From IMG/VR virus record IMGVR_UViG_3300045960_000114, positions 64,001 through 128,000 of that record: 64,000 nucleotides of DNA; one strand, written 5' to 3'. Positions 4,491 through 61,413 of this stretch are shown piece after piece. Origin of the DNA: a virus. Both the position numbers and the translations under genes were made by a program. Within the stretch, counting starts at the first letter, position 1, and each line of letters begins with the position of its first letter. The notes beneath the pieces are model-generated. The model saw only the letters and a program-made list of their open reading frames with translations, searched no databases and was not told where the DNA came from.

Positions 4491-4504
4491 GAGCCTAATA
4501 CCCT

Positions 4505-6118: not shown

Positions 6119-6126
6119 GGTGAGAT

Positions 6127-6462
6127 GTGAAGAAGAAAGCCACGTCAGTAGCCGATCATCTCCTGTCAGCGGCACCTTACGGGGTGATGTGGTACGGCAA
6201 CACGCTGGCCGCACCGTGGCCTGAAGATTTTGAGCAGATGAGCGACGCAGAGAAGAACCGCGTGCGCATGCGTCAGCTGCTGAAGGGTGCCGTGTACGGT
6301 TTGAGTGGGTACGCTGCCACCAGATTGATGTTCAGCGATGACTACAAGAAGTTGAATGAGTCCATGTCCGCAGCCTCCCGCGCGCCGAGCGAGGAGTCGA
6401 TTCTGGAGAAGGAAAGTGCGCACAGATTGATGCAGGCTGTCCGGCTGGCGGCATCAGTGTAA
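6127..6462 (+). CDS. Hypothetical protein
   Basis: Tightly packed ORF in the structural operon. Confidence 0.55.
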   Translation: MKKKATSVADHLLSAAPYGVMWYGNTLAAPWPEDFEQMSDAEKNRVRMRQLLKGAVYGLSGYAATRLMFSDDYKKLNESMSAASRAPSEESILEKESAHRLMQAVRLAASV

Positions 6463-6472
6463 GGATGGAACC

Positions 6473-7096
6473 ATGCCCACCGCAAAAGCGATAAGGCGGT
6501 TGAAAAATCAGTTGGACTTCTATCCCATGGATACCAACGCCAAGGGATTGGTTCGGATCTTCTCGTTCGACCCTAAGACGGGCAAGATCAAGTCCATAAT
6601 CGAGAAGCAGAACCTGATCCTTTACAGCGGCGCCGACGTCATGGCGAAGTGTCTGTCGGGCAACAGCAACTACGCCATCAGCTCGATGTTCATGGAGTTC
6701 AAGAACCTTCCCAGCCCATCCGATTCGATCACACCGCCAGCGTTCGACCGGACCGGTGGCATCGGTTACTACAGCGGGCTGTCATCGTCGCTCGACACGG
6801 ATTACGTGCGCGTTCCGCTGGTGTCGATGCCTGATTTCGATACCAGCGACGCGCTCTACTACAACTTCAACCAGGCCACGTACTTTGCCATCAGCGAGGG
6901 TTCCACCGGCGTCCACGGGAAGACCTTCGGCCCCGGCACGAACTCCGCTGTGTACGGAGCGGCACTCGTGGCGACGCCGGAGCCCGCCCAGCCGGCGCAG
7001 GACGTGGTCTTCTCCCGTGTGTACTCCGGTGTGGGCAAGATCCTGAAAGAAGCGGGCTTCGAGATCGGGATCACCTGGACGATAAGGATGAACTAA
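6473..7096 (+). CDS. Tail-collar/baseplate-type structural protein
   Basis: NLILYSGADVMAKCLSG...ITWTI pattern seen in myophage baseplate/collar proteins; SD AAGGA-TGGA upstream. Confidence 0.5.
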   Translation: MPTAKAIRRLKNQLDFYPMDTNAKGLVRIFSFDPKTGKIKSIIEKQNLILYSGADVMAKCLSGNSNYAISSMFMEFKNLPSPSDSITPPAFDRTGGIGYYSGLSSSLDTDYVRVPLVSMPDFDTSDALYYNFNQATYFAISEGSTGVHGKTFGPGTNSAVYGAALVATPEPAQPAQDVVFSRVYSGVGKILKEAGFEIGITWTIRMN

Positions 7097-7097
7097 C

Positions 7098-7343
7098 ATG
7101 ACCCAGGCGCATGAGTACCTGATCAAGGCGGCCATGACCAAGACGGCCTTGTTCAACATCAACCTGATGATCCCGAAGCCGATGGCGGCAGCCATGATGG
7201 TCGGCATGGAACCTCAGCGCGAACCACCGTCGAAGTCGGATAACGAGCTTGAAAACTACGTCGAAATGCCCGTCTTCGAGCCGTTGGCCTCCCTGCGGCG
7301 AAAGAGACAGAGTCATCGGCGTGTTCTTCGTGCCGGAGGGTAA
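7098..7343 (+). CDS. Small hypothetical protein with K-x-A motifs
   Basis: Fills the gap between flanking genes; LIKAAMTKTALF. Confidence 0.5.
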   Translation: MTQAHEYLIKAAMTKTALFNINLMIPKPMAAAMMVGMEPQREPPSKSDNELENYVEMPVFEPLASLRRKRQSHRRVLRAGG

Positions 7344-7346
7344 ACA

Positions 7347-9206
7347 GTGTCTTCAATCACCCCGTGGCTCAGCAGAGTGAATCCTGTCGTCGATGGCGAA
7401 CAGGTCAAGGCTGACGTCACTAACAGATACCCGGCGCAGATCGGGCAGCGGACTGATAACCTCAAGCAGCGGTTGGACGATCTGCAGGCCAGCAAGGCGC
7501 TGTTCCTGAGAGACGTGGCGCTGGACCCGGCGGTTCTGGTGGGCTACGCCGTTTACTGGGACGCGTTGACCCTGAGCTACAGACCAGCGATCGCCAAGGT
7601 GGAGTACAGCGCAACGCTGGGTGGCTATGTGGTGGCTAATTCCAGCTACGTGGTTGGCATCTGCATTGCCAAGAGCACAGCGACTGTTGGCGATCTCGTA
7701 CAGATCGGCTTCGTCGGCGATTTCGACTTCACGAATGGCATTGGTTCGCCCGGCACGACGCCCGCAGAAGCCGGCCCGTATTACCTCTCCGGAACGCACG
7801 CGGGAATGTACACGCGGCAGAAACCGCCGGTTGGGGTGTACGTGGCATACCTGCGCGGCGACGGAAGTGCGCAGGTCAACCCCACTCCGCGTGACATTCT
7901 GGAAAGCCACATCCACTACAAGTACAACCTCTTCTCCAACCCGGCTGGCACGCTTGCAGCCACGTTGCCTGGGCAGCCTTACCAGTTCGCCTCGGTCAAC
8001 AACGCGCTGCCCGGCTGGTTGCCCGCGAGCGATGTAATTTTCGGTGGTGCTGCACCGGCAGGTGCAGTGTTTGGGTACAATCTGTCGCAGCACCTGGAAC
8101 TGGAGAGAGTTTGGCCTCCGCAGCCGTACGATCTGGTCTACATCGAGAAGAATGGCTACCCGGTCAACAGCGGGCTGTTCCTGGCCGATGCGAATGGCCT
8201 GTGGTGGTTCGAGAACTGCTATGGGAAGGCGCCGTGGGCCACCCAGGCGAACAACGTGCAGTCGTCCTCATCCTCCTCGTCCTCTTCGTCTTCGTCTTCG
8301 TCCAGTTTCACGTGCGAAGAGCTGTCCCTGCTGGAAAGTGAAGGATACCTACGCAGCGCGCCGGACGCCTCCGTGATGGCCATCTTCTTTACCAAGATGA
8401 TCTTCAAGTCGTCGCTGCTCGTGACGTCGCTTCAGCCGGTAGCCGGCTCGCCGATCGAGATCGTTGGCTGTGATGGGCTGCCGGCGACGCATGGCGACCT
8501 GAAGGTGGGGTTAAACCTGGCGATGACCACCCAGGATGGCGATTACTCGCCTTATGGGTTGAAGGGCGTCACCGGAACCACATTCGGCAAGGGGCCGATT
8601 CTTACGGGTGTGAAGCCGGGAAGTAATGTGAGCATCGTGCCGGTGCCTAATCGCGGTTTCCTGGGCACTGATGGGGTGTATCGCGGCGAGTTTACCATAA
8701 GTGCCAACCTCACGGAAAACCTCCTGGGAGGCACACCGGAACTCGTTGCATTGGATGGTGTGCGCCAGCAGTCGACTGATGGCATCTTCTACCTGATCTT
8801 CCCGAAGAGCCTGACCACGTCCATGCAGATGCGCGTGGGTATCCCAACCGGTGGCGTGCCGGAGGATGCCTATCTGCGGCTCTGGTTCTGGCTGCTGTCC
8901 AAGCGCAACAGTCTGCCGCTGCCTGATCTGTACTGCTCGTACCGGAAACTGGCTACACCCGGTTCTGGATGCGGAAAGGGGTCGCTACCAGACGCTGACA
9001 TCGGTTTAAGTCCTCTGGCTCCAGGTGTTTGCGGGAACATCAATTCTGGCGAGTACATCGAGATCGAGTCGGATCCGATTCCGGTGGTCAATGGCGACAT
9101 GGTCTTCTTCACGCTGCAGCGAGTTGACAGTGGTACAACCCCGGACGCTTACGACGGCGATGTCGGCGTGCTGCGGTTCGGGTACGGAATCAGCTTGGTG
9201 AGCTAA
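7347..9206 (+). CDS. Structural (tail/baseplate) protein with 15-Ser tract
   Basis: 619 aa, SD GGAGG; poly-Ser at 8262-8306. Confidence 0.6.
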   Translation: MSSITPWLSRVNPVVDGEQVKADVTNRYPAQIGQRTDNLKQRLDDLQASKALFLRDVALDPAVLVGYAVYWDALTLSYRPAIAKVEYSATLGGYVVANSSYVVGICIAKSTATVGDLVQIGFVGDFDFTNGIGSPGTTPAEAGPYYLSGTHAGMYTRQKPPVGVYVAYLRGDGSAQVNPTPRDILESHIHYKYNLFSNPAGTLAATLPGQPYQFASVNNALPGWLPASDVIFGGAAPAGAVFGYNLSQHLELERVWPPQPYDLVYIEKNGYPVNSGLFLADANGLWWFENCYGKAPWATQANNVQSSSSSSSSSSSSSSSFTCEELSLLESEGYLRSAPDASVMAIFFTKMIFKSSLLVTSLQPVAGSPIEIVGCDGLPATHGDLKVGLNLAMTTQDGDYSPYGLKGVTGTTFGKGPILTGVKPGSNVSIVPVPNRGFLGTDGVYRGEFTISANLTENLLGGTPELVALDGVRQQSTDGIFYLIFPKSLTTSMQMRVGIPTGGVPEDAYLRLWFWLLSKRNSLPLPDLYCSYRKLATPGSGCGKGSLPDADIGLSPLAPGVCGNINSGEYIEIESDPIPVVNGDMVFFTLQRVDSGTTPDAYDGDVGVLRFGYGISLVS

Positions 9207-9216
9207 GAGGTAGGGC

Positions 9217-10152
9217 ATGACGACAGCTGCGCAGGGTATCTGGGATATCGAGTGGCTTAACGGCAACTCGCAGCGCAAGTATCCCCTGAGGGATGACGCC
9301 ACCAAGACAGATACGACCGAGGCTATGGTCATCCCAGATGACTTCATGGTCGACCTGCTTTGGCCAGTCCAGTCAGGTATTGGGGCTGACCCTACACTGT
9401 TTCACGTCTACGCCATCGACATCTTTGGTACCGGCGTGAAGATCACGCTGGGCTACAACGGTTCGCCCATTGGGGAGACCCTGATAGACACGGAGACGTT
9501 CACGCCAAACCGCGCTTATGTTATCAGCGGACTGAATGACTTTGAGGACAGCATCGGCAAGGTGGTCATCGGCACGCTGAGCAGCATACAAACGTATGCC
9601 GGTCATTTTGAGTTTGATTCAGTAGGTGCTGGTCTGCAGCCGACGGTGATCAGACCGAACCTTCGCGGTGTCAGTGCCATCTTCCTTCAGAATGGGCAGG
9701 ATGTAAGCGACGCCATACAGGGTGACGTGGTATTCGAGGCGGGCAGTAATTTTCAGCTGAACTTCCAACGGCGCAGCGGCACTAAAGCTGACCCGCATGT
9801 CATCGTCCTGAGTGCCATTGACGGAACAAACCTGAATGCTGATTGCCAGTGCGATCCGCAGGAGACGCGTCAGCCGATCTTGACCATTGATGGCATACCG
9901 GGCGACGTCAACAACAACTTCAACCTGCTTGGCTCGACCTGCGTAGAGATGACCCCGATAACCAACGGGTTGAAGATAGAAAATCCATGTTCGGAACCCT
10001 GCTGTGGCTGCCAGGAACTGGAAGTGGTACAACAGGCTACGGAGACGTTGACAGGACAAGTCCACACGCTGATCAACCTGGCGGCAAAGCTGGAAGCAGC
10101 AATTGGGACGTTGGAGTCAAACCTGGCCACCGCAGGCGCGATAACGAGATGA
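9217..10152 (+). CDS. Cys-rich tail-associated protein, paralog 1
   Basis: EWLNGNSQRKYPL N-motif; ILTIDGIPGDVNNNF; PCSEPCCGC; C-terminal coiled coil. Confidence 0.6.
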   Translation: MTTAAQGIWDIEWLNGNSQRKYPLRDDATKTDTTEAMVIPDDFMVDLLWPVQSGIGADPTLFHVYAIDIFGTGVKITLGYNGSPIGETLIDTETFTPNRAYVISGLNDFEDSIGKVVIGTLSSIQTYAGHFEFDSVGAGLQPTVIRPNLRGVSAIFLQNGQDVSDAIQGDVVFEAGSNFQLNFQRRSGTKADPHVIVLSAIDGTNLNADCQCDPQETRQPILTIDGIPGDVNNNFNLLGSTCVEMTPITNGLKIENPCSEPCCGCQELEVVQQATETLTGQVHTLINLAAKLEAAIGTLESNLATAGAITR

Positions 10153-18573: not shown

Positions 18574-18789
18574 ATGGAAGAACTGGTGGACACCATGGCA
18601 GAACTGGATGTCATCAAGCAGCTGGCTGAGATCATGGGCTCGCTCAACGACGACGGCAGGCGGCGCGCGTTGTGGTATCTGGCGGATATCTACGGTCTGT
18701 CTGGGCGTCCACAGGTGCAACCACCAACCCAGGCAAAACATTCTACGAGCAGCCCCATACCGATCGGACAGGTTAGGACCGCGCCGTAA
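18574..18789 (+). CDS. Small hypothetical protein
   Basis: SD GGGGGA; translationally coupled to the GT gene. Confidence 0.5.
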   Translation: MEELVDTMAELDVIKQLAEIMGSLNDDGRRRALWYLADIYGLSGRPQVQPPTQAKHSTSSPIPIGQVRTAP

Positions 18790-20519
18790 TGCCTGAACAG
18801 CTGATGCTGACCAATCGGCAGTGTCCTGGCGACTTTATCGTCATGACGGCTGCCATCCGTGATCTGGCCCTGTGCTACCCAGGCCGGTACAAAATACACG
18901 TCAATGTCGACCAGAAAGATGTGCTGGTAGCAAATCCTCACATCGCACCGATGGCTACGGTCATGCGCCCGAAGACTGTGGAAGCGGGTTACGACAAGGG
19001 CAGGTATTCGGTCAACAATTCCAACCAGAACCGTGCCCATTTCCTATGGGGGTTCATCAGCGAGCTGAACCTTAAGTTGAAGCTGGCAATCAGGCTGACC
19101 GAGTTCAGGCCGGCACTGTACCTGACCGACGACGAGCGCAATCGCAGGCCGATCGAAGAGCCGTACTGGGTCTTTGTCAGCGGCGGGAAGATGGACTACA
19201 CAGCCAAGTGGTGGGATCCAGCGCGTTGGCAGCAGGTGATCAACCAGATGGCTCCGCGCGTCAAGATGGTGCAGGTGGGTGGCACGGGCCGTGGTTCTCA
19301 CATCCACAAGCCGATGGACAACGTAATAGACCTGGTCGGCAAGACCAGCTTCCGCCAGCTCATCAACTTGATCTACCACTCCGAGGGGGTCATGTGCATC
19401 GTGACCTGCCTCATGCACATAGCCGCCGCCTTCAACAAGCCCTGTGTGGTGATCTCGGGCGGGCGTGAGCCTTGGTGGTGGGAGGCGTATAATACAGAGA
19501 ATCGGCTGGTCAACATGCGGTTGGGCGACCCAACGTGGAATCCCCCTGCGAACGACAACTTCATCCCACATCAATACCTGCACACGCTTGGCCAGCTCCC
19601 CTGCTGCCAGAACTTCGGCTGCTGGAAGAGCAAGATCCTGCCGCCGGAAGTGCCCCCGCCGCCTAAGCACACCAAGTGCGCCATCCCTACCAAGCTGGAC
19701 AGCGGGCTGTGGCTGCCGGAATGTCTGAATCGCATCACGGTCGATCAGGTCGTTCAGGCTGCCGAGTGGTACTACAACAAGGGCATCCTCAAGTGGGGGA
19801 AGCCGTCCTCGATCTTCGTGCCGCCGGTTGAGCTGCTACAGCCTGTCACGCTGCCTGAGCCGCCACAGCCCGTGGCACCCCCGGTTACCATACAGTTCAA
19901 GGAGCCGCCTAAGGAGCCCGTTTTCCTGGACGGAACCTGGACCGTGTGCGGGATCACCTCGCTGCAGTCGCCCACTCGCCGTAAGTTCGCGCTGGATCTG
20001 AAGGCTTGGTGTGTCAACCGTAAGGTGAACTACCTGGTCATCCAGATGGGTGCCGAAAAGGCCATGACCAACGAGATGGCGGCATTCGGCATCCCTTATC
20101 AGGAGTGCAGTGGCACCTGGGTGTCCGCCATGATGCAGGCGATGGTATTTGCCCAGTCGCAGCCGAGTGAGCGGGTCATCCTCATCGAGGATCCGCTACA
20201 TCTGAACGGGAAGCTCGACGATGTCGTGCCCAACGAGCCGTTCGTGGCTGGTACCATCTCATGGCGCCCGCTGACCCAGCCGCACTTGGACCGCCTGGCG
20301 CCCATCCTGGATCCGGAAAGGTTGGACAAGCACCCACTGGCGCCTGGCCGGTTCAAGGCGTATTATCTTAACCGAGGGTTTGTCATGGGCACCAAGGACA
20401 TACTCTGCAAGACATTACAGAATGTCCACCAGCGGGAGGAGTACGCGGACATCCTGATGTGTGAGTACCCGCGCCAGCATGGCGCCAAGGTGCTCGACAT
20501 AAGCGAGCAGTTCATTTGA
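18789..20519 (+). CDS. GT9-family glycosyltransferase (heptosyltransferase-like) with a Cys cluster and a second unknown domain
   Basis: PGDFIVMTAAIRDL; DLVGKTSFRQLINLIYHSEGVMCIVTCLMHIAAAFNKPCVVISGG (GT9 C-lobe); CC..GCW...C...ECLNRITVDQV. Confidence 0.8.
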   Translation: MPEQLMLTNRQCPGDFIVMTAAIRDLALCYPGRYKIHVNVDQKDVLVANPHIAPMATVMRPKTVEAGYDKGRYSVNNSNQNRAHFLWGFISELNLKLKLAIRLTEFRPALYLTDDERNRRPIEEPYWVFVSGGKMDYTAKWWDPARWQQVINQMAPRVKMVQVGGTGRGSHIHKPMDNVIDLVGKTSFRQLINLIYHSEGVMCIVTCLMHIAAAFNKPCVVISGGREPWWWEAYNTENRLVNMRLGDPTWNPPANDNFIPHQYLHTLGQLPCCQNFGCWKSKILPPEVPPPPKHTKCAIPTKLDSGLWLPECLNRITVDQVVQAAEWYYNKGILKWGKPSSIFVPPVELLQPVTLPEPPQPVAPPVTIQFKEPPKEPVFLDGTWTVCGITSLQSPTRRKFALDLKAWCVNRKVNYLVIQMGAEKAMTNEMAAFGIPYQECSGTWVSAMMQAMVFAQSQPSERVILIEDPLHLNGKLDDVVPNEPFVAGTISWRPLTQPHLDRLAPILDPERLDKHPLAPGRFKAYYLNRGFVMGTKDILCKTLQNVHQREEYADILMCEYPRQHGAKVLDISEQFI

Positions 20520-46851: not shown

Positions 46852-49753
46852 TTTCGAACTGGACCCGGATGCGCTGGCTATGGCACCGGTTGCTGGGAGT
46901 ACGGAAGAACCAAGCATCTTTGACCGGTATTGTGCTCAACTCGGCTACCCCAGCGCCGAGATACTGGCCAAGGTCATGCTTTTGAATCCCGTGTTCATGC
47001 CGGTGGTCGACAAGAAGGGAAATTCGACACAGCCTGTCCTCTGGTTACCAGGGCATACGTACGGGAATGCGGAACGTGGACCGATCAGGCATTACGACAT
47101 CATGGCTGTTGGTAAGATGCCTGGTCCAGAGGAGTTAGAGCGGCAGCTCAATTTCGCCGGCCCTGCCGGGAAGTTGCTGCGGGACATTGCGAACAGTCTT
47201 GGTTACCACCAGCTCAACAACTGGTACTTCACCAACATTGTGCGCTTCATACCGCCGACGGTTGGGAAGGCGGCGCTGCCAAACCTCTACGTGGAAATCT
47301 GCTTCCCTTTGCTGCTACAGGAGATAGCGCTGGTAAAGCCGCGTATTTTGGTGCTGATGGGCGCAGATGCTGTCAAGGCTGTGGCTGGCAAGCACACCAC
47401 CTTAAGCAACATGCGTTCGTCGGTCTTTGTGCTGCGCGGGCCGCGCGGGATCAGGCAGCCGATGGAGAACTACGCCCTACTGGAAGACAAGCCTGAGGAT
47501 GCTACCCTGGTTTGCGCTACAATCCATCCTGCGGCGGTTTTGCGCGAGAATGGGCTCATGGACGGTCTGACGGCGGATTTGACCCGCATTCGCGACCTGC
47601 ACATCGGCAGGGACCCAACAGTGACGGACCTCAAGTCGCGTGACTACTTCTACGTCAGGACACATGAAGAGCTCAGGGGGGTGGTAGATGCCATCTTCAC
47701 GCAGACCGGCCAGATCCCGATTGCGGTAGACTGTGAAACAGGCGGCAGAGATTTCCGAACTGGGCTGGTTCGTTCGATCCAATTCTCCTGGGCGCCGCGC
47801 ACGGCCTGTGTGGTGATTCTGGCCAATACGGGTGGTGAGCAGGCGCAGAGTTCAAGCGAACGGGCACTGATGGTAAACGAGCTGCGTCGGCTCTTCACGG
47901 ATCCGCGCGCGCAGCTGATCTTCCACAACGGGCGGTTTGAAGCCAAGTGGCTTGGTCATCTGGGGTTGGAGATGATAAACCGGTTCTATTTCGACACCAT
48001 GCTGGCCGACCATTGTCTTAACGCGAACGCTGAACATGGGTTGGAGGCGTTGTCAATCCGTTACACGAACATGGGCCGTTACGACTGGGAGCTGGCTGAA
48101 TGGGTCAAGGCGCATGGCGGTATGGCCATGGTCAAGGAGCGTGGCTATCTGGACGTGCCGGAAGACATCCTGCTGCCTTATGCGGCCTGTGATACGGACT
48201 GCACGTGGCGCTGTTACCGCGTGCTGAGTGAGACGCTGGAGCGGCCTGAGAACAAACAACTGCGGGACCTGTTCTTCAATGTCATCATGCCGTGCAACGC
48301 GCCGCTGCATGAGATGGAACGGTTGGGCGTGCTGGTGGACAGGGACAGGCTGGTTGAGCTGACCCATCGGTTCCATGAGCGCAAGGAACGGTTGGTCCAG
48401 CACATCAGGATGCGCGTGGGTGATGATTCCTTCAACCCACGGAGCACGCAGCAGAAGGCGAAGCTGCTCTTTGAGAACCTGGGGTTACCCCCCTACAAGA
48501 CGACGGGCAAGCCCTCCAGGATGTGGGTGGACCTGACTCCGTCGGAGGTGGTGAACTCGACGCCGGCGGTTGACCTCGAGACGTTGGAGGCAATACAGGC
48601 AAACGATAAGACTGGGATTGTTCAACTGCTGCATGACTTTGCGGTTGTGGACCAGGTCTGCAAGCAGTTCCTGACGTATGAAGACGGTGTTGAAGGTGGG
48701 CTGATCGATTACATCTCAAGTGACGGACGTATCCACACCAGCTTCTCCCAGACGTCTGAAACCGGGCGGGAGAAGAGTTCGGATCCAAATTGTCAGAATT
48801 TACCGAAGGCACAGGAAGAAGAACTGAGGCGCATCCTCGGCTCGGACCTGCCATCCATACGAAGCGCGTTCATCGCGCCTCAGGGAAGCGTAATCATCGA
48901 GGCTGATTACAAGTCGGCTGAGATCTTCACGCTTGGGTATCTGTCGAACTGTCCCAAACTGATTAGAGACGCGAGTAGTGATCTGCATGCTCGTGGTGCT
49001 GTGAACTACTTTGGTGCGCCCAGATGGAAGGGATTTGAGGAAGGTAAGAAACCGCCAGGCGACTGGAAGGAACAGTATGGTGCCATGCGTGTGGCGGCGA
49101 AAACCATCAACTTCGGCATCGCGTATCAGCGCGGTGCCAAAGCAGTTGCACGGGCGATCATCGCCGAGACGGGTGGTAAGTTGTGTCCCTCGCCTGAGGA
49201 GGCACAGGAGTTCATTGACGGGTTCTACAACACGTACCCGGAAGTAAGGGATTACGTGGATTACTGTAAGACGAGCGTGGTACAACCGGGCTACGTGTCG
49301 AACGCTTACGGAAGGCGTCGACGCTTCATGGCCCAGTCAACTGATGAACGAGGCCAGTTGGCTGCGTTTGAGCGAGAAGCCGTGAACATGCCGATCCAAG
49401 GGACGGTGGCTGATACGCTTAACGCTGCTATTTCCAACATGTTCAGGTGGAGATCAATGTATGCGGGTCGTTGCAACTACCGCATTATACTGGTTGTCCA
49501 CGACGCTGTTCTCATAGAGGTTCCAGGTGAGGAGGCGCATATAGTTTACAATGAAGTTCTTCCGCAGTGCATGACTACCATGGCGGTGGTACCTCCCTGG
49601 TATCCATGGCCGCATACAATCAGAAAATCCGAACCTTTCACCCTTGACGTTGATCGAGAAGTGTATATAAGGTGGGGCGTCAAAGCGACCAAAGAAGAGT
49701 TGGTTGCTCGTGGCGTTAGCACAGAACACGCAGAACTGATGACTAAGCACTAA
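46817..49753 (+). CDS. polA: Family A DNA polymerase with N-terminal uracil-DNA-glycosylase (family 4-like) domain and 3'-5' exonuclease
   Basis: UDG-like: VGKMPG, FAGPAGKLL, TNIVRFIPP, TIHPAAVLR. Exonuclease: VDCET, FHNGRFE, YAACD. Polymerase: EADYKSAE, RVAAKTINFGIAY, VHDAV. Confidence 0.92.
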   Translation: MQQLYEYQLPANFELDPDALAMAPVAGSTEEPSIFDRYCAQLGYPSAEILAKVMLLNPVFMPVVDKKGNSTQPVLWLPGHTYGNAERGPIRHYDIMAVGKMPGPEELERQLNFAGPAGKLLRDIANSLGYHQLNNWYFTNIVRFIPPTVGKAALPNLYVEICFPLLLQEIALVKPRILVLMGADAVKAVAGKHTTLSNMRSSVFVLRGPRGIRQPMENYALLEDKPEDATLVCATIHPAAVLRENGLMDGLTADLTRIRDLHIGRDPTVTDLKSRDYFYVRTHEELRGVVDAIFTQTGQIPIAVDCETGGRDFRTGLVRSIQFSWAPRTACVVILANTGGEQAQSSSERALMVNELRRLFTDPRAQLIFHNGRFEAKWLGHLGLEMINRFYFDTMLADHCLNANAEHGLEALSIRYTNMGRYDWELAEWVKAHGGMAMVKERGYLDVPEDILLPYAACDTDCTWRCYRVLSETLERPENKQLRDLFFNVIMPCNAPLHEMERLGVLVDRDRLVELTHRFHERKERLVQHIRMRVGDDSFNPRSTQQKAKLLFENLGLPPYKTTGKPSRMWVDLTPSEVVNSTPAVDLETLEAIQANDKTGIVQLLHDFAVVDQVCKQFLTYEDGVEGGLIDYISSDGRIHTSFSQTSETGREKSSDPNCQNLPKAQEEELRRILGSDLPSIRSAFIAPQGSVIIEADYKSAEIFTLGYLSNCPKLIRDASSDLHARGAVNYFGAPRWKGFEEGKKPPGDWKEQYGAMRVAAKTINFGIAYQRGAKAVARAIIAETGGKLCPSPEEAQEFIDGFYNTYPEVRDYVDYCKTSVVQPGYVSNAYGRRRRFMAQSTDERGQLAAFEREAVNMPIQGTVADTLNAAISNMFRWRSMYAGRCNYRIILVVHDAVLIEVPGEEAHIVYNEVLPQCMTTMAVVPPWYPWPHTIRKSEPFTLDVDREVYIRWGVKATKEELVARGVSTEHAELMTKH

Positions 49754-56434: not shown

Positions 56435-56644
56435 ATGGTCAAGATCGTGTTCGGCGGCAACAGCGTAGTCAAGGCGTACGACGGCCAGCAGGTGGCCCAG
56501 GTCCGCACGGACCTGTCGGGATTCTTTCAGATCCCGGGCAACGCGCAGGTGCGCGTGAACGGCGTCACCGCCGGTGAGGACACCACGCTCCGCCCCAACG
56601 ACGTGGTTGAGTTCATCAAGCAGTCGGGCGAGAAGGGCTGCTAG
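56435..56644 (+). CDS. Ubiquitin-like beta-grasp modifier (Prok-Ub/PRTRC-C-like)
   Basis: 69 aa; VRVNG...LRPNDVVEF...SGEKG-C-stop; SD GGAG. Confidence 0.8.
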   Translation: MVKIVFGGNSVVKAYDGQQVAQVRTDLSGFFQIPGNAQVRVNGVTAGEDTTLRPNDVVEFIKQSGEKGC

Positions 56645-56672
56645 CCCTCTCCGACTGTTGACGTACCAGTGT

Positions 56673-56714
56673 GATACCAGCGCCTGTCTCCCACAGGCGC
56701 TGGTGTCTTTTTTT
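56673..56714 (+). terminator. Intrinsic terminator after the Ubl gene
   Basis: GATACCAGCGCCTG-7nt-CAGGCGCTGGTGTC + T7. Confidence 0.85.
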
Positions 56715-56752
56715 AGTTACCACCAAACCAACCCCAAGAAGCAGGAGGAAGG

Positions 56753-57487
56753 ATGAGTGAGGAGCGGATCGTAGCAGCAAAGGATGCTCCAGCTGCTAAG
56801 CCAGCCGATGCCGTTGAACCGCACTACGCGGATCTCAACGAGCGGTTGACTGAACAGTTGCGGAATTTCCGGGCTGCTGGCGAGGCGTTGGGGCTTCTTC
56901 TCGTCGAGAACATCAAGTTCAACCGTGACAAGTTGAGCGAGTTCTTCGACAAGTTTGAAGCGATCAAAGAAGCGCTGCCGGACGTCGATGCCGTATTGAA
57001 GGCGTGCGACGATCTGGCGGAATTCAAAAAGCGGCTGGATGGTGCCGTGGCGGATCTGGACACCAAGTTCATGGGCCAGCTTACGACCCTGAACAACACG
57101 GTCAATGGACTCGTGGCGTCGCAGCAGGAGAGGGCGCAACGCGACGGACAACCCGTGGATCTGACGTCCGTGATGTCGTTGGTCACCACGATACGCGATC
57201 AGGCGGTGGACCTGGAGAACAGGTTCAGCGCTCTGTACGAACGTGTCACGATGGTGGATCAGAGCCACCGCGATACGACCGGCGAGGTGCACACACGGCA
57301 CGACAACCATGCACGAGCTACCGCCGCGCGGTTCTTGCAGATTGAGAACCGCGTGACGGAACTCGAAGGAAGAGTTGCTAACCTGCCCACGAATCTACCT
57401 GGTCGGCTCATTGAGCTGAGAAACAGGATCGAAAGGCTCGAGCCCCGCTCAGAAAGCGGGCAACAAAACGAAGGAGGGACGTCTTAA
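56753..57487 (+). CDS. Coiled-coil protein in the Ubl cassette
   Basis: Extended heptad pattern; SD GGAGGAAGG. Confidence 0.65.
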   Translation: MSEERIVAAKDAPAAKPADAVEPHYADLNERLTEQLRNFRAAGEALGLLLVENIKFNRDKLSEFFDKFEAIKEALPDVDAVLKACDDLAEFKKRLDGAVADLDTKFMGQLTTLNNTVNGLVASQQERAQRDGQPVDLTSVMSLVTTIRDQAVDLENRFSALYERVTMVDQSHRDTTGEVHTRHDNHARATAARFLQIENRVTELEGRVANLPTNLPGRLIELRNRIERLEPRSESGQQNEGGTS

Positions 57488-58201
57488 ATGGCGGTTCCCG
57501 CACAACAACAGCGGCGTCGGATCGTCGTTCAGAATGGACTCGTTCTGATGGAGCTGGTGACGTTGGAGAAGGTCGGCTCCCTCGGTGACTGGATGAACAA
57601 GGTACTGGAGTCGTCGCCCTCGCCCAGCAAGTTGCTTCCGCTCGACTGCGTGGACAACTTCTCCCTGCGGCGCAAGGACACGACGCACCGCCGGATCTAC
57701 GTGACATACATGCACCCCCGGATGCAGACGTTCCGCTTCCGTGGCGACCGCGCGAACGCGCAGGCACAGCAGTACGAACTGAGCTGGCCGCACACCCTCT
57801 GGTGGTTCGTGTTCTCGAACCAGCAGTTGAACGGCCTGTACCTGACCGCCACGAAGGTCTCACCGTACGAGGTTCCGAACTACATGGACCTCGACTTGTT
57901 CTGGCTGCCCTGTCCGAATCAGTACCCTGAGGGTCACTTCTGCCTCGGTAACCTGAGCACGGACATCTCGTGGCCGGACTGGCGGCGCGTCAATGTCCTG
58001 CGCAATGATGTACTGTCGTCGAACTGGAACACCGACCTGATCCCGAATCTGTCCGGGTTCCCGTTCAGCTCCATCCCGGAGTGGGCGGAGCAGTCGAGCC
58101 GCAAGCCGGAGCTCTGGAAGGAGCTTCCGTTCAAGCCGTACGTACACCCCACGTACCGGAAGATGTGCGACTACCTGATGGGAGTGGGAGGCCGAGAGTA
58201 G
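57488..58201 (+). CDS. Prokaryotic E2 (family D/PRTRC-B-like) conjugating enzyme
   Basis: LSWPHTLWWF...LFWLPCPNQYPEGHFCLGN (putative catalytic Cys 57941-57943)...NTDL. Confidence 0.75.
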   Translation: MAVPAQQQRRRIVVQNGLVLMELVTLEKVGSLGDWMNKVLESSPSPSKLLPLDCVDNFSLRRKDTTHRRIYVTYMHPRMQTFRFRGDRANAQAQQYELSWPHTLWWFVFSNQQLNGLYLTATKVSPYEVPNYMDLDLFWLPCPNQYPEGHFCLGNLSTDISWPDWRRVNVLRNDVLSSNWNTDLIPNLSGFPFSSIPEWAEQSSRKPELWKELPFKPYVHPTYRKMCDYLMGVGGRE

Positions 58202-58202
58202 C

Positions 58203-58514
58203 ATGGCTACGAAAGTCGAAGACGAGAAGTTGATGCAGCAGCTGATCGACGCGCTGGTGGCTATGCCTCCGGGCAAGATCCAGAGCATCCCCGAGATCAT
58301 GGGTCAGTTCATGACCATGTCCCGGGAGAGCCTGGTTACGTGGGCTGGGCGGCCCGAGCAGGTGATGGCCGCCCAGTTCATGGCCTATCTCAAAGGCCAC
58401 GGCATGCTGACGGAAGTGCTGGAGTCGAAGTTCGATTCCTCGTTCAAGGTCATGACGGACGCAATGGCGCTGTGTCCGTCAAAGGCGAGCAGAGTCTCGG
58501 AGGGAGGCCACTAA
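58203..58514 (+). CDS. Hypothetical helical protein in the Ubl cassette
   Basis: SD GGAGG; coupled to E2 and JAB. Confidence 0.6.
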   Translation: MATKVEDEKLMQQLIDALVAMPPGKIQSIPEIMGQFMTMSRESLVTWAGRPEQVMAAQFMAYLKGHGMLTEVLESKFDSSFKVMTDAMALCPSKASRVSEGGH

Positions 58515-58517
58515 GGG

Positions 58518-59807
58518 ATGTTTCCCATCATTCAGGTGAGCAAGGAGATGAAGGACTCCGATATCCCGCAGGAGAATTGTTATCTCATCGGGTCCAACGG
58601 GGTCTTCAAGCAGGTCGTCAACGAGTTCTACAGCGTCCGGGTGAAGAACGGATCACTCCCGGATCTGCAGGAACTCAAGGAAGACGTCGAACTCCACGTG
58701 ACGCGGCTGCCCCAGCGCATCCTCGACCACGTGCACGCGTTCTTCCGCGCCGTGAACGACAAACACAAGGGGGAGGCTGTTGTCCTCCTCATGTACCATC
58801 CCACGGACAAAAGGTGGATCGTCAAGATCCCCCCGCAGGACACAAAGGGGATGAGCGTCCACTACGATCTGGATAAGGGCGACGCCCTCATCTGGATTCC
58901 CTCGAACGGTAAGGAAGAGATGACCTTGGTACATAACCAGCGGGAAGCCCCGCCGGAAGGTATCAAGGATTTCAGGCTCTTCGGGTCGATACACAGCCAC
59001 TGTGACGCCGGCGCGTTTCACAGTGGTACGGATGACAAGGACGAGTTCTGTTTCGACGGCCTCCACATCACGTTGGGGCACGTCAGCAAGAATCCGCCCG
59101 ACATCAGTTGCCGGTGGATGTTAGCTGGCCAGTGGTGGAAAGCGGAAGCGAGCGGCTGCATTGCGTTCGACCACGCGGCACCGAAGGTGGACGACCGCTG
59201 GATGGATCGCGTAAGCGAGGTGAAGTATTCGCCCGCTGTCCAGACCTGGGTGTCCCCGCCATCGGGTACCGGGTTCGATTCGCCCATGAGCAGGCATCCG
59301 TACGATGGCAATGGGTACGGGTACAGCGGGTACGAAGGACCTGGGAGTCACGACGACCCAAAATCACAAACCCCCACACAGGCGGGCGGCGGAAGCGCAG
59401 GAGGAAGCACAAGCGGGACGACAAATCCTGCTACCTCCTCGACTAATACGCCGGATGTGGGGGAAGATGACACACCGCCGGTGTACGAACTGTTCGCTCG
59501 GTACGAGGACGTTACTGAGCACGCAACACTCACCAGTAAGGAACTGTCCATCATCCAGTTGTGCGAGGACGACCCGCAGCTCCTGTCGTTCATGGAGACG
59601 TTGAGTGAGGAGGAACTGAAGCGGTTGCTGACTACTCACGAACTGTTCGACAAGTTCATGGAGGAGGCGTCGATCGACTTCATCGCACGCAAGCAGGCTG
59701 AAGGCGATGGTTCAGGCAAGACGGATATCGACGGCAAGCGGCTTGCCGATCTGATCGAAGAGGAGAAGGAAGCGCAAAAGGAAGGGGAGGTACTCGGGAG
59801 TGTTTGA
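58518..59807 (+). CDS. JAB/JAMM metallo-isopeptidase (PRTRC-A-like) with disordered linker and acidic C-terminal domain
   Basis: YLIGSNGVF; E(GEAVV)...GSIHSHCDAGAFHSGTDDKDE. Confidence 0.85.
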   Translation: MFPIIQVSKEMKDSDIPQENCYLIGSNGVFKQVVNEFYSVRVKNGSLPDLQELKEDVELHVTRLPQRILDHVHAFFRAVNDKHKGEAVVLLMYHPTDKRWIVKIPPQDTKGMSVHYDLDKGDALIWIPSNGKEEMTLVHNQREAPPEGIKDFRLFGSIHSHCDAGAFHSGTDDKDEFCFDGLHITLGHVSKNPPDISCRWMLAGQWWKAEASGCIAFDHAAPKVDDRWMDRVSEVKYSPAVQTWVSPPSGTGFDSPMSRHPYDGNGYGYSGYEGPGSHDDPKSQTPTQAGGGSAGGSTSGTTNPATSSTNTPDVGEDDTPPVYELFARYEDVTEHATLTSKELSIIQLCEDDPQLLSFMETLSEEELKRLLTTHELFDKFMEEASIDFIARKQAEGDGSGKTDIDGKRLADLIEEEKEAQKEGEVLGSV

Positions 59808-60576
59808 ACCCAAAACTGTAGCGGTGGTGGGTTGCGGGGGGATCGGCTCATGGCTGATCCCTCCGCTCGTACGATACTTGGCGTCGGAGGACTACGACGG
59901 GGAGATAATCCTCTTCGACGGCGACAAGTACGAGGAAGGGAACGTTTGCAGGCAGGCGTTCCCCATGCGCTGTATGGGCATGAACAAGGCGGAAGCCATG
60001 CGTGACCGCATCCTCGATGACCTGCCACACGTGCTGGTTACGGCTAACAGCCAGTACATCAGCAAGGAGACGGCTGGGATGGCCATGCGCGAGCATGGCG
60101 TGTGCTTCGCCTGCGTGGACAACCACCCGGCGCGTGCACATCTGGCCCGGCAGTGTGAGTCATTGAAGAACGGACTGTTGATCTCTCCAGCAAACGAGAA
60201 GTATGACGGCAACGTCTGCGCGTACCTGAGAGAGAATGGGAAGGAGTCCACAGAGCACCTCCTCAACCGTCACCCGGAAATTGCGGCGAAGACCGAGGGT
60301 GACCGTGGAGCGGGCTGTGAGGCTCTTACTGCGGCAGGCGAGACGCAGCTGATGTTGGCCAATCTGTATGCGGCTACGACTGCGATGGGTGTGTTCTGGA
60401 ACCTGTACAACCAGGGCATGCGCATGGAGAAGGGTACTAAGCTGACTGAGAAAGCGCAGGAAACCTTCTTCGACATCCGTACGTTGCAGGCGAATACCGT
60501 GTTCGCACCGAAAGGAGGCGTACATGCAGCTAGCCCCGATATGCCTGTCGTCGCTATTCCTGCTGGATCCGCATAG
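59800..60576 (+). CDS. ThiF/E1-like activating enzyme
   Basis: VVGCGGIGSWL, DGDKYEEGNVCRQ, NKAE, CVDNHPAR, GAGC (putative catalytic Cys 60316-60318). Confidence 0.88.
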   Translation: MFEPKTVAVVGCGGIGSWLIPPLVRYLASEDYDGEIILFDGDKYEEGNVCRQAFPMRCMGMNKAEAMRDRILDDLPHVLVTANSQYISKETAGMAMREHGVCFACVDNHPARAHLARQCESLKNGLLISPANEKYDGNVCAYLRENGKESTEHLLNRHPEIAAKTEGDRGAGCEALTAAGETQLMLANLYAATTAMGVFWNLYNQGMRMEKGTKLTEKAQETFFDIRTLQANTVFAPKGGVHAASPDMPVVAIPAGSA

Positions 60577-61378
60577 CCTGCATGAAAGCAAAGAAGTGAG
60601 TCGGGACCTGACGTTGACTGTGGCGGATGCAACGGACGACTACAACACGGACGAAGGCGATGGCGCCTGGATACCAGAGTACCTACGCTGGATTCAGAAC
60701 ATGTGGTTCTCACTGACCCAGGAGGAGATCCACTGGCCGGATTACCACCGGTTCGACGACGATTCATTCCGTGAGACGCTGCGGACCGTATACCACAGAA
60801 ACATGTTCGTGGAGTTCACGAACAGGTTCTACACGGAGTGGCGGGACAACCATATACACATCCCGTCCATGTATGACGTGGACTCCAGCGTACAGGATCG
60901 GGTGTGTTCCGAGTGCGAAAACGACGACGTCTGGGAGGAGGAGTATGACATGACCCAGGCGCCAATCAATCCTGATGAGTGGACGGGGTGGGAAGTTAGT
61001 CCTCCGCGCTGTTCCGCAGCCGTTCTGTTTGCGGTTGGTGAGCGTAATGCATCACTTCGTCAGCACATGGAGAACGCGTGGCAGCAATGGCTCGCCACAC
61101 GAGAGTCGATTGGGCGCCACAATATCTGCGATGAACGATGCGATTTGTTCTACGATAACCAAGCCGATCGCATGAGGCGAATGATCGACTTCAACATCCA
61201 CTGGTTGGACGCGAAGTGGCAAGCCTTTATAGGCACCACTATCCAGATCCCACCGATACCGAAGCCGATCAACGTGCTTCCTTTCCCTGAGCTGCAGATC
61301 GACCCGGCACCAGCCGTGACGATCAGGCCGCTTAGCGAGATCGCAAAGGAAGCACGAAGACTTAGACGTGGCTGGTAA
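60524..61378 (+). CDS. Unknown acidic Trp-rich protein ending the Ubl cassette
   Basis: SD AAAGGAGG; overlaps the E1 end by 53 nt; CSEC and CDERC. Confidence 0.6.
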   Translation: MQLAPICLSSLFLLDPHSLHESKEVSRDLTLTVADATDDYNTDEGDGAWIPEYLRWIQNMWFSLTQEEIHWPDYHRFDDDSFRETLRTVYHRNMFVEFTNRFYTEWRDNHIHIPSMYDVDSSVQDRVCSECENDDVWEEEYDMTQAPINPDEWTGWEVSPPRCSAAVLFAVGERNASLRQHMENAWQQWLATRESIGRHNICDERCDLFYDNQADRMRRMIDFNIHWLDAKWQAFIGTTIQIPPIPKPINVLPFPELQIDPAPAVTIRPLSEIAKEARRLRRGW

Positions 61379-61382
61379 ACCT

Positions 61383-61413
61383 TGCGGGGCCGGGCGTGTA
61401 ACCCGGCCCCGCA
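61383..61413. terminator. Perfect 12-bp GC hairpin closing the Ubl cassette
   Basis: TGCGGGGCCGGG-CGTGTAA-CCCGGCCCCGCA. Confidence 0.6.

What the first reader, a model, noticed from the sequence alone, without database searches (positions are those of the whole stretch)
56435..61413. Phage-encoded complete ubiquitin-like conjugation cassette (Ubl-E2-JAB-E1 plus three unknown partners)
Seen: a 69-aa beta-grasp Ubl, an E2-like gene with catalytic-type Cys (HFCLG), a JAB peptidase with an intact HSH...S..D motif and a ThiF/E1 (GCGGIG, RQ, NKA, CVDN, GAGC). They are co-oriented and tightly coupled, and a GC hairpin closes the block. Established: this gene set matches PRTRC-type and other bacterial Ubl-E1-E2-JAB operons, and some bacterial systems of this kind are anti-phage protein-conjugation systems. 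Inference: a phage carrying the whole pathway may tag host or virion proteins, or out-compete a host ubiquitin-like defence. The interleaved coiled-coil (56753), helical (58203) and acidic Trp-rich (60524) genes are candidate substrates or E3-like adaptors.
Basis: partly seen in the sequence, partly recalled or inferred. Interest (0 to 1): 0.88.

Follow-up and report, generated by a model that had tools for sequence, protein, structure and literature searches.

The report
Phage-borne ubiquitin-like protein-tagging gene cassette
A large (about 185 kb or more) bacteriophage carries a complete, apparently intact set of genes for attaching a small ubiquitin-like protein to other proteins; all characterised bacterial systems of this kind defend against phages, so finding one conserved in a phage lineage (and unannotated in cultured phages) opens a testable question about what phages tag.

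Summary
Seven co-oriented genes at 56435-61378 lie in a 185 kb IMG/VR virus record that has baseplate, terminase and replication genes.

Components:
- The 69-aa protein is a beta-grasp Ubl (AF2 pLDDT 89.5; MoaD TM 0.78; ubiquitin and SUMO also match). K67-G68 is invariant and the cap after it is variable (none, S or C).
- The 237-aa protein is a Prok-E2_D-type E2, with invariant N144-x7-C152.
- The JAB keeps all JAMM residues.
- The E1 keeps all adenylation residues and has a conserved Cys173.

Two of the three unknowns, p103 and the four-cysteine protein p284, are conserved core parts. The coiled-coil gene is a lineage-specific insert. A strong hairpin, usually a terminator, follows the Ubl gene in all eight relatives tested.

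The cassette is related to PRTRC / Iyer operon type 6d, but it fails PRTRC's curated cut-offs and no ParB gene was found. Its position is conserved in related phage-sized (192-204 kb) contigs. Distant versions sit unannotated in the cultured phages Edson, WH1 and Arash.

The conjugation biochemistry is inferred and the targets are unknown. The scan's other notes on this stretch are re-reads of the same DNA, not independent finds.

The parts
56435..56644 (+). Ubl: 69-aa beta-grasp modifier ending ...SGEKG-C. Gly68 is the predicted conjugation site and Cys69 a removable cap.
   Evidence: AF2 pLDDT 89.5 with b1b2-a-b3b4-b5 order. Foldseek PDB matches at probability 1.0: MoaD TM 0.78, ubiquitin, SUMO, NEDD8, ThiS, Urm1, SAMP1. 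K67-G68 invariant in 40 sequences. Orthologues 87-88% identical end EKG, EKGS or EKGC. ThiS or TGS hits in 15 and 13 of 40 members.
56673..56714 (+). Intrinsic terminator/attenuator between the Ubl gene and the enzyme genes (15-bp stem, 5-nt loop, T7)
   Evidence: Fold -40.3 kcal/mol, z -4.3. A 12-16 bp hairpin of unrelated sequence lies at the same position in all 8 type-A loci tested.
56753..57487 (+). CC244: 244-aa coiled-coil protein, a lineage-specific insertion between the Ubl and E2 genes. Function unknown; a candidate substrate or scaffold.
   Evidence: Only weak coiled-coil-type hits. No homologue in 83 related loci. A 230-aa gene occupies the same slot only in the relative whose JAB is 47% identical.
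57488..58201 (+). E2-like conjugating enzyme, Prok-E2_D superfamily. Catalytic Cys152 lies in LPxPN-x7-C-x-G.
   Evidence: 76 homologues. 23 of 57 hit PF14460 and 8 of 57 hit TIGR03737. N144 and C152 are 57/57 and G154 is 56/57. AF2 pLDDT 93. The top structural matches are UBC/UEV/RWD folds, Z 5.0-3.4, including BubB and CdnG-E2.
58203..58514 (+). p103: small conserved accessory protein of the type-A cassette, always between the E2 and JAB genes. Function unknown.
   Evidence: Found in 18 non-identical sequences from type-A loci, with invariant L44, G49 and A57. No hit in Pfam, NCBIfam, PHROGs, PADLOC or the Atlas.
58518..59807 (+). JAB/JAMM metallopeptidase with an N-terminal JAB-N-like region, a low-complexity linker and an acidic C-terminal tail. 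Predicted Ubl-processing and deconjugating enzyme.
   Evidence: 274 homologues, several named PRTRC genetic system protein A or carrying PF14464. Invariant E86, H159, H161, S169, D172. PRTRC_A 35 bits and Prok-JAB 19 bits, both below cut-off.
59800..60576 (+). E1-like ThiF/MoeB-type adenylyltransferase: a single 258-aa adenylation domain with a conserved Cys173.
   Evidence: PF00899 66.5 bits, above the 28.1 cut-off. Aligns to MoeB 1jw9 with the GxGGxG, D, RQ, K and DN residues in place. C173 conserved in 75 of 76.
60524..61378 (+). p284: acidic, Trp-rich accessory protein with four conserved Cys (C128-x2-C131 ... C202-x3-C206). Putative single-zinc module and candidate specificity (E3-like) factor.
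   Evidence: Follows the E1 gene in the window, its close relatives, L002, L003, L008 and six Planctomycetota loci. C128, C131 and C206 are 9/9 and C202 is 8/9. No family, Atlas or PADLOC match.
61384..61412 (+). GC-rich hairpin closing the block (12-bp stem, 7-nt loop, no T-tract)
   Evidence: Sequence. Fold -32.9 kcal/mol, z -4.2. Not scored as a terminator by the consensus scan.

Best explanation
This is a functional ubiquitin-like protein-conjugation cassette carried by a large phage. It is a distinct, ParB-less clade related to Iyer-Burroughs-Aravind operon type 6d / PRTRC. All steps below are inferred from sequence, fold and comparison; none is shown biochemically. (1) The Ubl is made in excess, because a leaky terminator separates its gene from the enzyme genes. 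(2) The JAMM peptidase trims the one-residue cap (Cys69) to expose Gly68. In relatives it would also cut poly-Ubl precursors. (3) The ThiF-type E1 adenylates Gly68 with ATP and probably takes the Ubl onto Cys173. (4) The Ubl passes as a thioester to E2 Cys152. (5) The E2 transfers it to lysines of one or more target proteins, probably guided by the two conserved accessory proteins, p103 and the four-cysteine protein p284. (6) The JAB can reverse the mark. The cassette is carried by phages and other mobile elements and sits next to the replication/recombination module at a conserved position in a deep phage lineage. Its most likely use is therefore to modify proteins in the infected cell for the phage's benefit: host takeover, counter-defence or competition with other elements. 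The targets are unknown.
For: Every catalytic part is present and its key residues are conserved. The Ubl has a beta-grasp fold and invariant K67-G68. The optional, variable cap among near-identical orthologues, the tri-Ubl in L005 and the tetra-Prok_Ub in phage Edson all imply endoproteolytic maturation at that Gly. JAB trimming of this kind was shown experimentally for Type II Bil (PMC10557695). The E2 has transitive Prok-E2_D/PRTRC_B homology, an invariant N-x7-C at the canonical HPN...C spacing, and a UBC-like fold. The JAMM residues are invariant. The E1 adenylation residues are conserved, as is C173. The six-gene set Ubl-E2-p103-JAB-E1-p284 recurs in large phage contigs and Planctomycetota elements at 25-45% identity. 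The hairpin after the Ubl gene is present in all eight loci tested, although their sequences are unrelated. Phage context. No integrase was found. The upstream gene order is shared with 192- and 204-kb contigs. Homologues in cultured phage Arash were detected by LC-MS/MS in phage preparations, so they are expressed (PMC10585845).
Against: There are no biochemical data for this clade or for 6d/PRTRC. The structural match of the E2 to solved E2s is weak (Z at most 5.0; Foldseek E at least 0.1). The Ubl's nearest profile matches are the sulfur carriers ThiS and MoaD. The E1 is a minimal MoeB-like domain, and a conserved Cys there is equally compatible with sulfur chemistry. The C-terminus is K-G, not G-G. 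No target, and no recognisable RING, HECT or RBR E3, was identified.
Confidence: 0.72

Rival explanations
1. Sulfur-carrier pathway. The Ubl is a ThiS/MoaD-like carrier. The E1 adenylates it and it is converted to a thiocarboxylate that donates sulfur to a small molecule, nucleoside or DNA modification. The JAB only uncaps the carrier, as Mec+/CysO and QbsD/QbsE do (my own knowledge).
For: The Ubl's best profile and fold matches include ThiS and MoaD. The E1 is a 258-aa MoeB/ThiF-like domain. JAB plus a capped carrier is a known sulfur-transfer arrangement (PMC1779556).
Against: An E2-like protein with an invariant Cys and Asn is always present and tightly coupled. No rhodanese, cysteine desulfurase or sulfur acceptor enzyme was seen among the cassette genes or the flanks scanned. 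Poly-Ubl precursors are typical of modifiers, not carriers.
Confidence: 0.08
2. Same biochemistry, but used as superinfection exclusion or defence. The phage-borne cassette tags proteins of competing phages or plasmids, as Bil tags the central tail fibre, and so protects the infected or lysogenic cell for the carrier element.
For: All characterised bacterial Ubl-conjugation systems (Bil, type II CBASS) are anti-phage. Relatives sit in integrase-bearing Planctomycetota elements and occur in several copies per MAG.
Against: No integrase was found in the 185 kb held, which suggests a virulent lifestyle. The cassette keeps a conserved position beside the replication genes in a deep phage lineage. 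Apart from the E1 Rossmann region, no protein hits a PADLOC defence model. It also occurs in apparently lytic cultured phages.
Confidence: 0.12
3. Counter-defence by mimicry. The phage system competes with or reverses a host Ubl-based defence; for example the JAB strips host Ubl from virion proteins, or the phage Ubl occupies the host E1/E2.
For: The JAB active site is intact. Bil-type defences act by Ubl conjugation to phage structural proteins.
Against: A deconjugase alone would suffice for this, yet E1, E2, Ubl and two accessory proteins are all conserved. No evidence was obtained that the presumed Planctomycetota hosts carry a Bil-like defence.
Confidence: 0.06
4. Virion-assembly aid. The Ubl and JAB act as an assembly chaperone pair like lambda gpI/gpK (TAPI/TAPK), or the Ubl is attached to a structural protein of the phage itself, such as the adjacent coiled-coil protein.
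For: Phage tail-assembly modules pair a Ubl with a JAB (PMC1779556). CC244 has a weak match to a 'minor head protein' PHROG. Arash homologues were detected in particle preparations.
Against: The cassette lies with the replication genes, far from the baseplate and terminase modules. The CC244 hits look like coiled-coil noise, and the gene is absent from most relatives. The Arash proteome found 116 of 272 proteins, including RNR and RNAP, so detection there is not specific.
Confidence: 0.05

Closest known systems
Iyer-Burroughs-Aravind operon type 6d (Genome Biol 2006, PMC1779556): Ubl + E2-like + alpha-helical protein + JAB-N/JAB + E1-like
   Same: The same five-part logic. A small stand-alone beta-grasp Ubl with a conserved C-terminal Gly. 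An E2-like protein with a conserved Cys that lacks the classical HPN His. A JAB with an extra N-terminal region. A separate E1-like protein without rhodanese. A small extra protein. Carried by mobile elements. Function still uncharacterised.
   Different: No absolutely conserved His lies downstream of the E2 Cys (best column 35 of 57). Instead S178-x-W-N181-x-D183-L184 and W199 are conserved. There is an added conserved four-Cys protein (p284). It sits in large phages. The Ubls hit ThiS/TGS and not PRTRC_C.
PRTRC (ParB-related, ThiF-related cassette; NCBIfam TIGR03734-TIGR03742)
   Same: The JAB and E1 have PRTRC_A and PRTRC_ThiF as their top NCBIfam hits. Some homologues are annotated PRTRC protein A or hit PRTRC_B.
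   Different: All scores are far below the curated cut-offs (35 vs 101.8; 64 vs 144.75). The window's E2 and Ubl hit neither PRTRC_B nor PRTRC_C. No ParB was found in the 185-kb record.
BilABCD (Type I/II) anti-phage ubiquitination-like systems (Hor et al. 2023 preprint; Chambers et al. 2023, PMC10557695)
   Same: A four-part Ubl/E2/JAB-DUB/E1 set. The Ubl has a conserved Gly followed in some members by a short cap, which in Bil the JAB removes. Tandem beta-grasp Ubls occur in some members.
   Different: The Bil E1 is multidomain (IAD+AAD+CYS), whereas this one is a single 258-aa domain. The E2 belongs to another family (Prok-E2_D-like). There are no PADLOC hits beyond the E1 Rossmann region. 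It is carried by a phage, not a defence island. p103 and p284 are additional.
Unannotated E2-JAB-E1 clusters in cultured phages: Bacillus phage Edson (PV796108) and vB_BceM_WH1 (LC597490), and Salmonella phage Arash (OQ632216)
   Same: Large phages (181-234 kb) with adjacent E2-like, JAB and ThiF genes that match the window's profiles (E 7e-18 to 1e-31; hhalign 98.4% for the Arash E2, with PN-x7-C aligned). Edson also has a 4x Prok_Ub protein.
   Different: Very distant (about 25% identity). They lack detectable p103 and p284, and no Ubl was detected in the Arash stretch examined. The hosts are Bacillus and Salmonella, not the presumed Planctomycetota.

Membership tests
Operon type 6d (Iyer et al. 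2006) | Small stand-alone beta-grasp Ubl with a conserved C-terminal glycine | tested here: met
   AF2 beta-grasp and Foldseek matches. G68 invariant in 40 of 40, with at most 3 residues after it.
Operon type 6d (Iyer et al. 2006) | E2-like protein with a conserved Cys and no classical HPN histidine | tested here: met
   C152 and N144 are 57/57. The position before P143-N144 is L, M or C, not H. Prok-E2_D hits in 23 of 57 homologues. UBC-type top structural matches.
Operon type 6d (Iyer et al. 2006) | Absolutely conserved His downstream of the E2 catalytic Cys | tested here: not met
   No invariant His after C152. The best His column is 35 of 57, and the window has Tyr there.
Operon type 6d (Iyer et al. 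2006) | JAB peptidase with an N-terminal alpha+beta JAB-N domain (conserved Arg and Trp) | tested here: inconclusive
   A conserved region of about 70-85 residues precedes the JAMM Glu, and W100 is invariant. The invariant R199-W200 pair lies after the core, not before it. Relatives align to nearly the whole PRTRC_A profile. This protein was not folded.
Operon type 6d (Iyer et al. 2006) | Separate E1-like adenylyltransferase without a rhodanese domain, adjacent to the JAB gene | tested here: met
   258 aa, ThiF domain only. Its gene overlaps the end of the JAB gene by 8 nt.
Operon type 6d (Iyer et al. 2006) | Conserved, largely alpha-helical fifth protein | tested here: inconclusive
   p103 is conserved in type-A loci.
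PRTRC (NCBIfam) | ParB-related protein in the cassette or element | tested here: not met
   No PF02195 match at E <= 0.01 in the 185-kb record, which is 88% complete, so absence is not absolute.
PRTRC (NCBIfam) | PRTRC_ThiF (TIGR03736) and PRTRC_A (TIGR03735) above their curated cut-offs | tested here: not met
   64.3 bits against 144.75, and 35.3 against 101.8.
PRTRC (NCBIfam) | PRTRC_B (TIGR03737) and PRTRC_C (TIGR03738) matches | tested here: not met
   The window's E2 and Ubl have no hits. 8 of 57 E2 homologues hit PRTRC_B weakly. None of 40 Ubls hits PRTRC_C.
BilABCD | Multidomain E1 (inactive plus active adenylation domains and a CYS insertion) | tested here: not met
   The E1 is one 258-aa adenylation domain aligned to MoeB residues 33-173. 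The feature definition is from PMC10557695.
BilABCD | Ubl with a conserved Gly that may carry a short cap removed by the JAB | tested here: met
   Met at sequence level only: termini are EKG, EKGS, EKGC, plus IIA, A or DG in relatives. Cleavage itself was not tested.
Known defence-system models (PADLOC 2.0.0) | Cassette proteins match defence-system HMMs | tested here: not met
   Only the first ~90-125 residues of the E1 (the nucleotide-binding region) match the CBASS 'E1-E2' models. There is nothing for the Ubl, E2, p103, JAB or p284.
ThiS/MoaD sulfur-carrier systems | Carrier plus E1 (plus sulfurtransferase), with no E2-like enzyme | tested here: not met
   An E2-like gene with an invariant Cys is present in essentially all related loci. 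No rhodanese or desulfurase was seen among the cassette genes or the flanks scanned.

The most novel reading that the evidence does not exclude
Large phages of at least three host phyla (presumed Planctomycetota, Bacillota, Pseudomonadota) encode their own complete ubiquitin-like conjugation pathway and use it during lytic infection to tag specific host or rival-element proteins. Specificity would come from a previously unrecognised four-cysteine (single-zinc) adaptor (p284) and a small E2/JAB-associated subunit (p103). That would be a prokaryotic-virus counterpart of the way eukaryotic viruses exploit ubiquitination, and the mirror image of the Bil and CBASS defences.
Probability: 0.3. Interest if true: 0.85.

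Novelty: new variant of a known kind. Interest (0 to 1): 0.66.

Why it matters
Every bacterial Ubl-conjugation system characterised so far (type II CBASS, Bil) is a host weapon against phages. This cassette has the same chemistry and apparently intact catalytic residues, yet it is vertically maintained in a deep lineage of large phage-like genomes. Distant versions lie unannotated in cultured phages (Arash on Salmonella Typhimurium, Edson and WH1 on Bacillus cereus). That makes 'what does a phage ubiquitinate?' directly testable. It also gives operon class 6d/PRTRC, described in 2006 and still without a function, a tractable experimental entry point. Finally, it defines two new conserved accessory families (p103 and p284) and a conserved gene-dosage design, a terminator after the Ubl gene.

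Tried and rejected
- **E2 in phage collections.** A single-sequence search of IMG/VR and GenBank phages found nothing. The E2 alignment was too divergent to seed a locus scan.
- **Short-range searches.** The word-indexed searches for the Ubl and for p284 returned only near-identical or close relatives.
- **E2 and JAB against solved structures.** Foldseek of the E2 model against the PDB gave no match with E <= 0.001. The E2 and JAB profiles against PDB sequences gave only noise.
- **Family libraries.** PHROGs has no family for the Ubl, E2, p103, JAB or p284. PADLOC has none beyond the E1 Rossmann region.
- **ESM Atlas.** The feature and structure look-ups for p284 and p103 gave nothing usable.
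- **CC244.** Its hits (Baculo_PEP_C, NPV_P10, SpiroCoCo, PspA, DruC, JetC, a 'minor head protein' PHROG) are all below cut-off and of the coiled-coil type. I rejected them as compositional.
- **Arash 'structural protein' labels.** I rejected these as evidence of virion packaging, because 116 of 272 proteins were detected, including RNR and RNAP.
- **Recent-transfer idea.** I considered recent horizontal acquisition by this phage and rejected it. The cassette's GC content matches the rest of the window, and its position is shared with phage-sized contigs at 22-42% protein identity.

Full report
**Observation.** The genes abut or overlap. E2 starts the base after the coiled-coil gene ends, p103 starts 2 nt after the E2 stop, JAB starts 4 nt after p103, E1 overlaps JAB by 8 nt, and p284 overlaps E1 by 53 nt. 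The one exception is a 108-nt gap after the first gene. The window is bases 64001-128000 of a 185,265-bp IMG/VR virus record that CheckV rates 88% complete. It encodes Baseplate_J, a gpA-type large terminase, an SbcC-like ATPase, helicases, a DnaB-like helicase, a Toprim primase, a PolA with UDG and exonuclease domains, and a RecA-like protein. No integrase and no ParB were found in the record. GC content is even across the window. The phage context therefore holds.

**Ubl (56435-56644).** The window protein alone gave only sub-threshold ThiS and TGS matches. Profile iteration over ORFs of syntenic loci recovered a Ubl in essentially every related locus.
- In a 40-sequence alignment K67 and G68 are invariant. 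The proteins stop at that Gly or within three residues of it.
- Orthologues 87-88% identical to the window protein end EKG, EKGS or EKGC.
- L005 encodes three tandem units, each ending SG(R/T)KG.
- Bacillus phage Edson encodes four tandem Prok_Ub repeats (PF14454, 96 bits).
- AlphaFold2 with this alignment gives pLDDT 89.5, the beta-grasp order of elements and a flexible tail.
- Foldseek returns MoaD (TM 0.78), Caldiarchaeum and eukaryotic ubiquitin, SUMO, NEDD8, ThiS, Urm1 and SAMP1 at probability 1.0.

A variable, dispensable cap after an invariant Gly, together with poly-Ubl precursors, is the signature of a modifier matured by endoproteolysis. JAB-dependent trimming of such caps has been shown for Type II Bil (PMC10557695).

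**E2 (57488-58201).** No library matched the window protein directly.
- An exhaustive phmmer search found 76 homologues of similar length.
- Of 57 aligned homologues, 23 hit Pfam Prok-E2_D and 8 hit PRTRC_B.
- N144 and C152 are invariant and G154 is 56/57, within LPxPN-x7-C-x-G. This is the N-to-C spacing of the canonical E2 HPN...C motif (spacing recalled from my own knowledge of UbcH5). The His is replaced, as Iyer et al. describe for their type 6d.
- The AF2 model is confident (pLDDT 93, pTM 0.80).
- Foldseek against the PDB is not significant, although E2s head the list.
- The Foldseek-independent search gives Z at most 5.0. Even so, the top rows are almost all UBC/UEV/RWD-fold proteins covering residues 45-228, including bacterial BubB and the CBASS CdnG-associated E2.
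- In BFVD the best matches are uncharacterised phage proteins (E 5e-9).

I accept the UBC-fold assignment mainly on transitive sequence homology and the motif. The structural matches are consistent with it but weak.

**JAB (58518-59807).** There are 274 homologues, several named 'PRTRC genetic system protein A' and many carrying PF14464. E86, H159, H161, S169 and D172, the full JAMM set, are invariant. A conserved N-terminal region precedes the core. A low-complexity linker and an acidic tail follow it in the window's subgroup.

**E1 (59800-60576).** ThiF scores 66.5 bits, above its cut-off. The alignment to E. coli MoeB places the GxGGxG loop, the Asp, the Arg-Gln, the Lys and the Asp-Asn correctly. 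Across 76 first-E1 sequences, G11/G13/G16/D40/K63/D107 are invariant, R51/Q52/N108/R112 are in at least 97%, and Cys173 is present in 75. The protein is a single adenylation domain with no rhodanese, CYS or UFD module.

**Accessory genes.**
- p103 lies between E2 and JAB in all but two of the type-A loci. It has 18 non-identical members, with L44, G49 and A57 invariant.
- p284 follows E1 in the window, its close relatives, L002, L003, L008 and six Planctomycetota loci. It keeps C128-x2-C131 and C202-x3-C206 (9/9, 9/9, 8/9, 9/9) down to 20% identity. In the shorter homologues the two Cys pairs lie close together. I read this as a probable single-zinc module and the best candidate for a specificity factor. 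That is inference only.
- The coiled-coil gene has no homologue in 83 related loci. Its slot is occupied only in the nearest relative. Its database hits are coiled-coil noise.

**Regulatory design.** A canonical terminator (15-bp stem plus T7) follows the Ubl gene. In all eight type-A loci tested, the Ubl-E2 gap folds into a 12-16 bp hairpin of unrelated sequence, usually followed by a U-run. The z-scores run from -1.8 to -6.0, and seven of the eight are at or below -3.9. This conserved attenuator implies that the Ubl is made in excess over the enzymes. The 3' hairpin at 61384-61412 is stable but has no T-tract.

**Distribution.** Two architectures share these families.
- **Type A (the window's type): Ubl-E2-p103-JAB-E1-p284.** It is found in phage-sized contigs of 181-204 kb (L002, L004, L005), in smaller viral contigs, and in Planctomycetota MAGs. 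One Planctomycetota copy sits beside an integrase, and several MAGs hold more than one copy. The window phage, L002 and L004 also share the upstream gene order (RecA-like, HTH and three more ORFs) at 22-42% identity. The cassette is therefore an old, stably placed part of this lineage.
- **Type B: a roughly 860-aa protein with an N-terminal E2 domain, then JAB, E1, a roughly 155-aa Ubl and a second ThiF-like protein.** It accounts for about 65 of the 80 IMG/VR loci retrieved.
- **Cultured phages.** Distant E2-JAB-E1 clusters occur in Bacillus phages Edson and WH1 and in Salmonella phage Arash, annotated only as hypothetical or structural proteins. The Arash proteome paper detected proteins numbered Gp246-Gp248 in particle preparations. 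Because it detected 116 of 272 proteins, this shows expression and not packaging (PMC10585845).

**Comparison with known systems.** The closest description is operon type 6d of Iyer, Burroughs and Aravind 2006, which corresponds to the PRTRC core.
- **PRTRC membership fails.** The scores are far below the curated cut-offs, there are no PRTRC_B or PRTRC_C hits, and no ParB was found.
- **One 6d feature is not met.** There is no absolutely conserved His downstream of the E2 Cys.
- **It differs from Bil** in its minimal E1 and in its E2 family, and it hits no PADLOC model beyond the E1 nucleotide-binding region.
- **Literature.** In the library searched I found no functional study of 6d/PRTRC. 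The 224-genome jumbo-phage overview does not mention E1, E2, JAB or Ubl genes. A 2026 preprint notes a PRTRC protein B as a mutational hotspot in a Phocaeicola prophage.

**Mechanism and confidence.** I put 0.72 on a working Ubl-conjugation relay: JAB trims the Ubl, E1 adenylates Gly68 and probably forms a Cys173 thioester, the Ubl moves to E2 Cys152, and it is then transferred to target lysines, with JAB able to reverse the mark. Every step is inferred. The biological role is much less certain. I favour modification of proteins in the infected cell for the phage's benefit. The rivals are superinfection exclusion (0.12), a sulfur-carrier pathway (0.08), counter-defence by mimicry (0.06) and virion assembly (0.05).

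**Verdict.** This is a real, ordered, conserved feature. It is a new variant of a known kind of system, and it is experimentally tractable through the cultured phages.

Noticed in passing
L087:1372-1704 (+), = G000:C1:138957-139289, about 11 kb beyond the window's end: The same phage has a second Ubl-like ORF (profile E 1.1e-12). It keeps the beta-grasp core and the 'LEFV' strand but ends ...PPGDCCR instead of ...SGEKG(C). It could be a divergent paralogue, a second modifier or a non-conjugatable decoy.
   Followed up: partly
L006, L009-L083 (about 65 IMG/VR loci), e.g. L021:1864-8718: A different, much commoner architecture in viral contigs: a roughly 860-aa protein with an N-terminal Prok-E2_D-like domain, then JAB, E1, a roughly 155-aa Ubl (N-terminal extension plus a beta-grasp ending KG or KGC) and a second ThiF-like protein of about 290 aa. 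The C-terminal ~600 residues of the large protein are uncharacterised.
   Followed up: partly
L084 (Bacillus phage Edson PV796108, 175466-186032): A cultured 234-kb phage has a 299-aa protein with four tandem Prok_Ub repeats (L084:1164-2063), then E2-like (4102-4827), JAB (4881-6260), E1 (6329-7186), two paralogous ~143-aa proteins and an SPFH/Band_7 protein (8176-9249). All are annotated 'hypothetical protein'. A Band_7 gene also lies about 4 kb downstream of the cassette in L002.
   Followed up: partly
L085 (Salmonella phage Arash OQ632216, gp246c-gp248c): An E2-like (PFPN-x7-C), JAB and ThiF-like trio in a cultured 181-kb Salmonella phage, labelled hypothetical or 'structural protein' from a particle proteome that detected 116 of 272 proteins. 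No Ubl was detected among the genes in the stretch examined.
   Followed up: partly
L005:4164-4796: A 210-aa tri-Ubl precursor in a 181-kb viral contig. The three units end SGRKG|A, SGRKG|S and SGTKG|DG, so it is polyubiquitin-like.
   Followed up: yes
window 46817-49753: The phage DNA polymerase A carries an N-terminal uracil-DNA glycosylase superfamily domain in addition to its 3'-5' exonuclease domain.
   Followed up: no
window 57-2855: A 932-aa ORF (open at the window's start) combines Helicase_C, a LigD_N 3'-phosphoesterase domain and a weak Zn-peptidase match.
   Followed up: no
window 18789-20519: A 576-aa phage protein with a family 9 glycosyltransferase (heptosyltransferase) domain lies near the structural genes.
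   Followed up: no
L102-L113 (GTDB genome contigs): Related E2-JAB-E1-Ubl cassettes appear on contigs binned to CPR bacteria (Uhrbacteria, Falkowbacteria, Kaiserbacteria, Saccharibacteria, Absconditabacterales) and to archaea (Woesearchaeota, Thermoplasmatales). Whether these contigs are viral was not checked.
   Followed up: no
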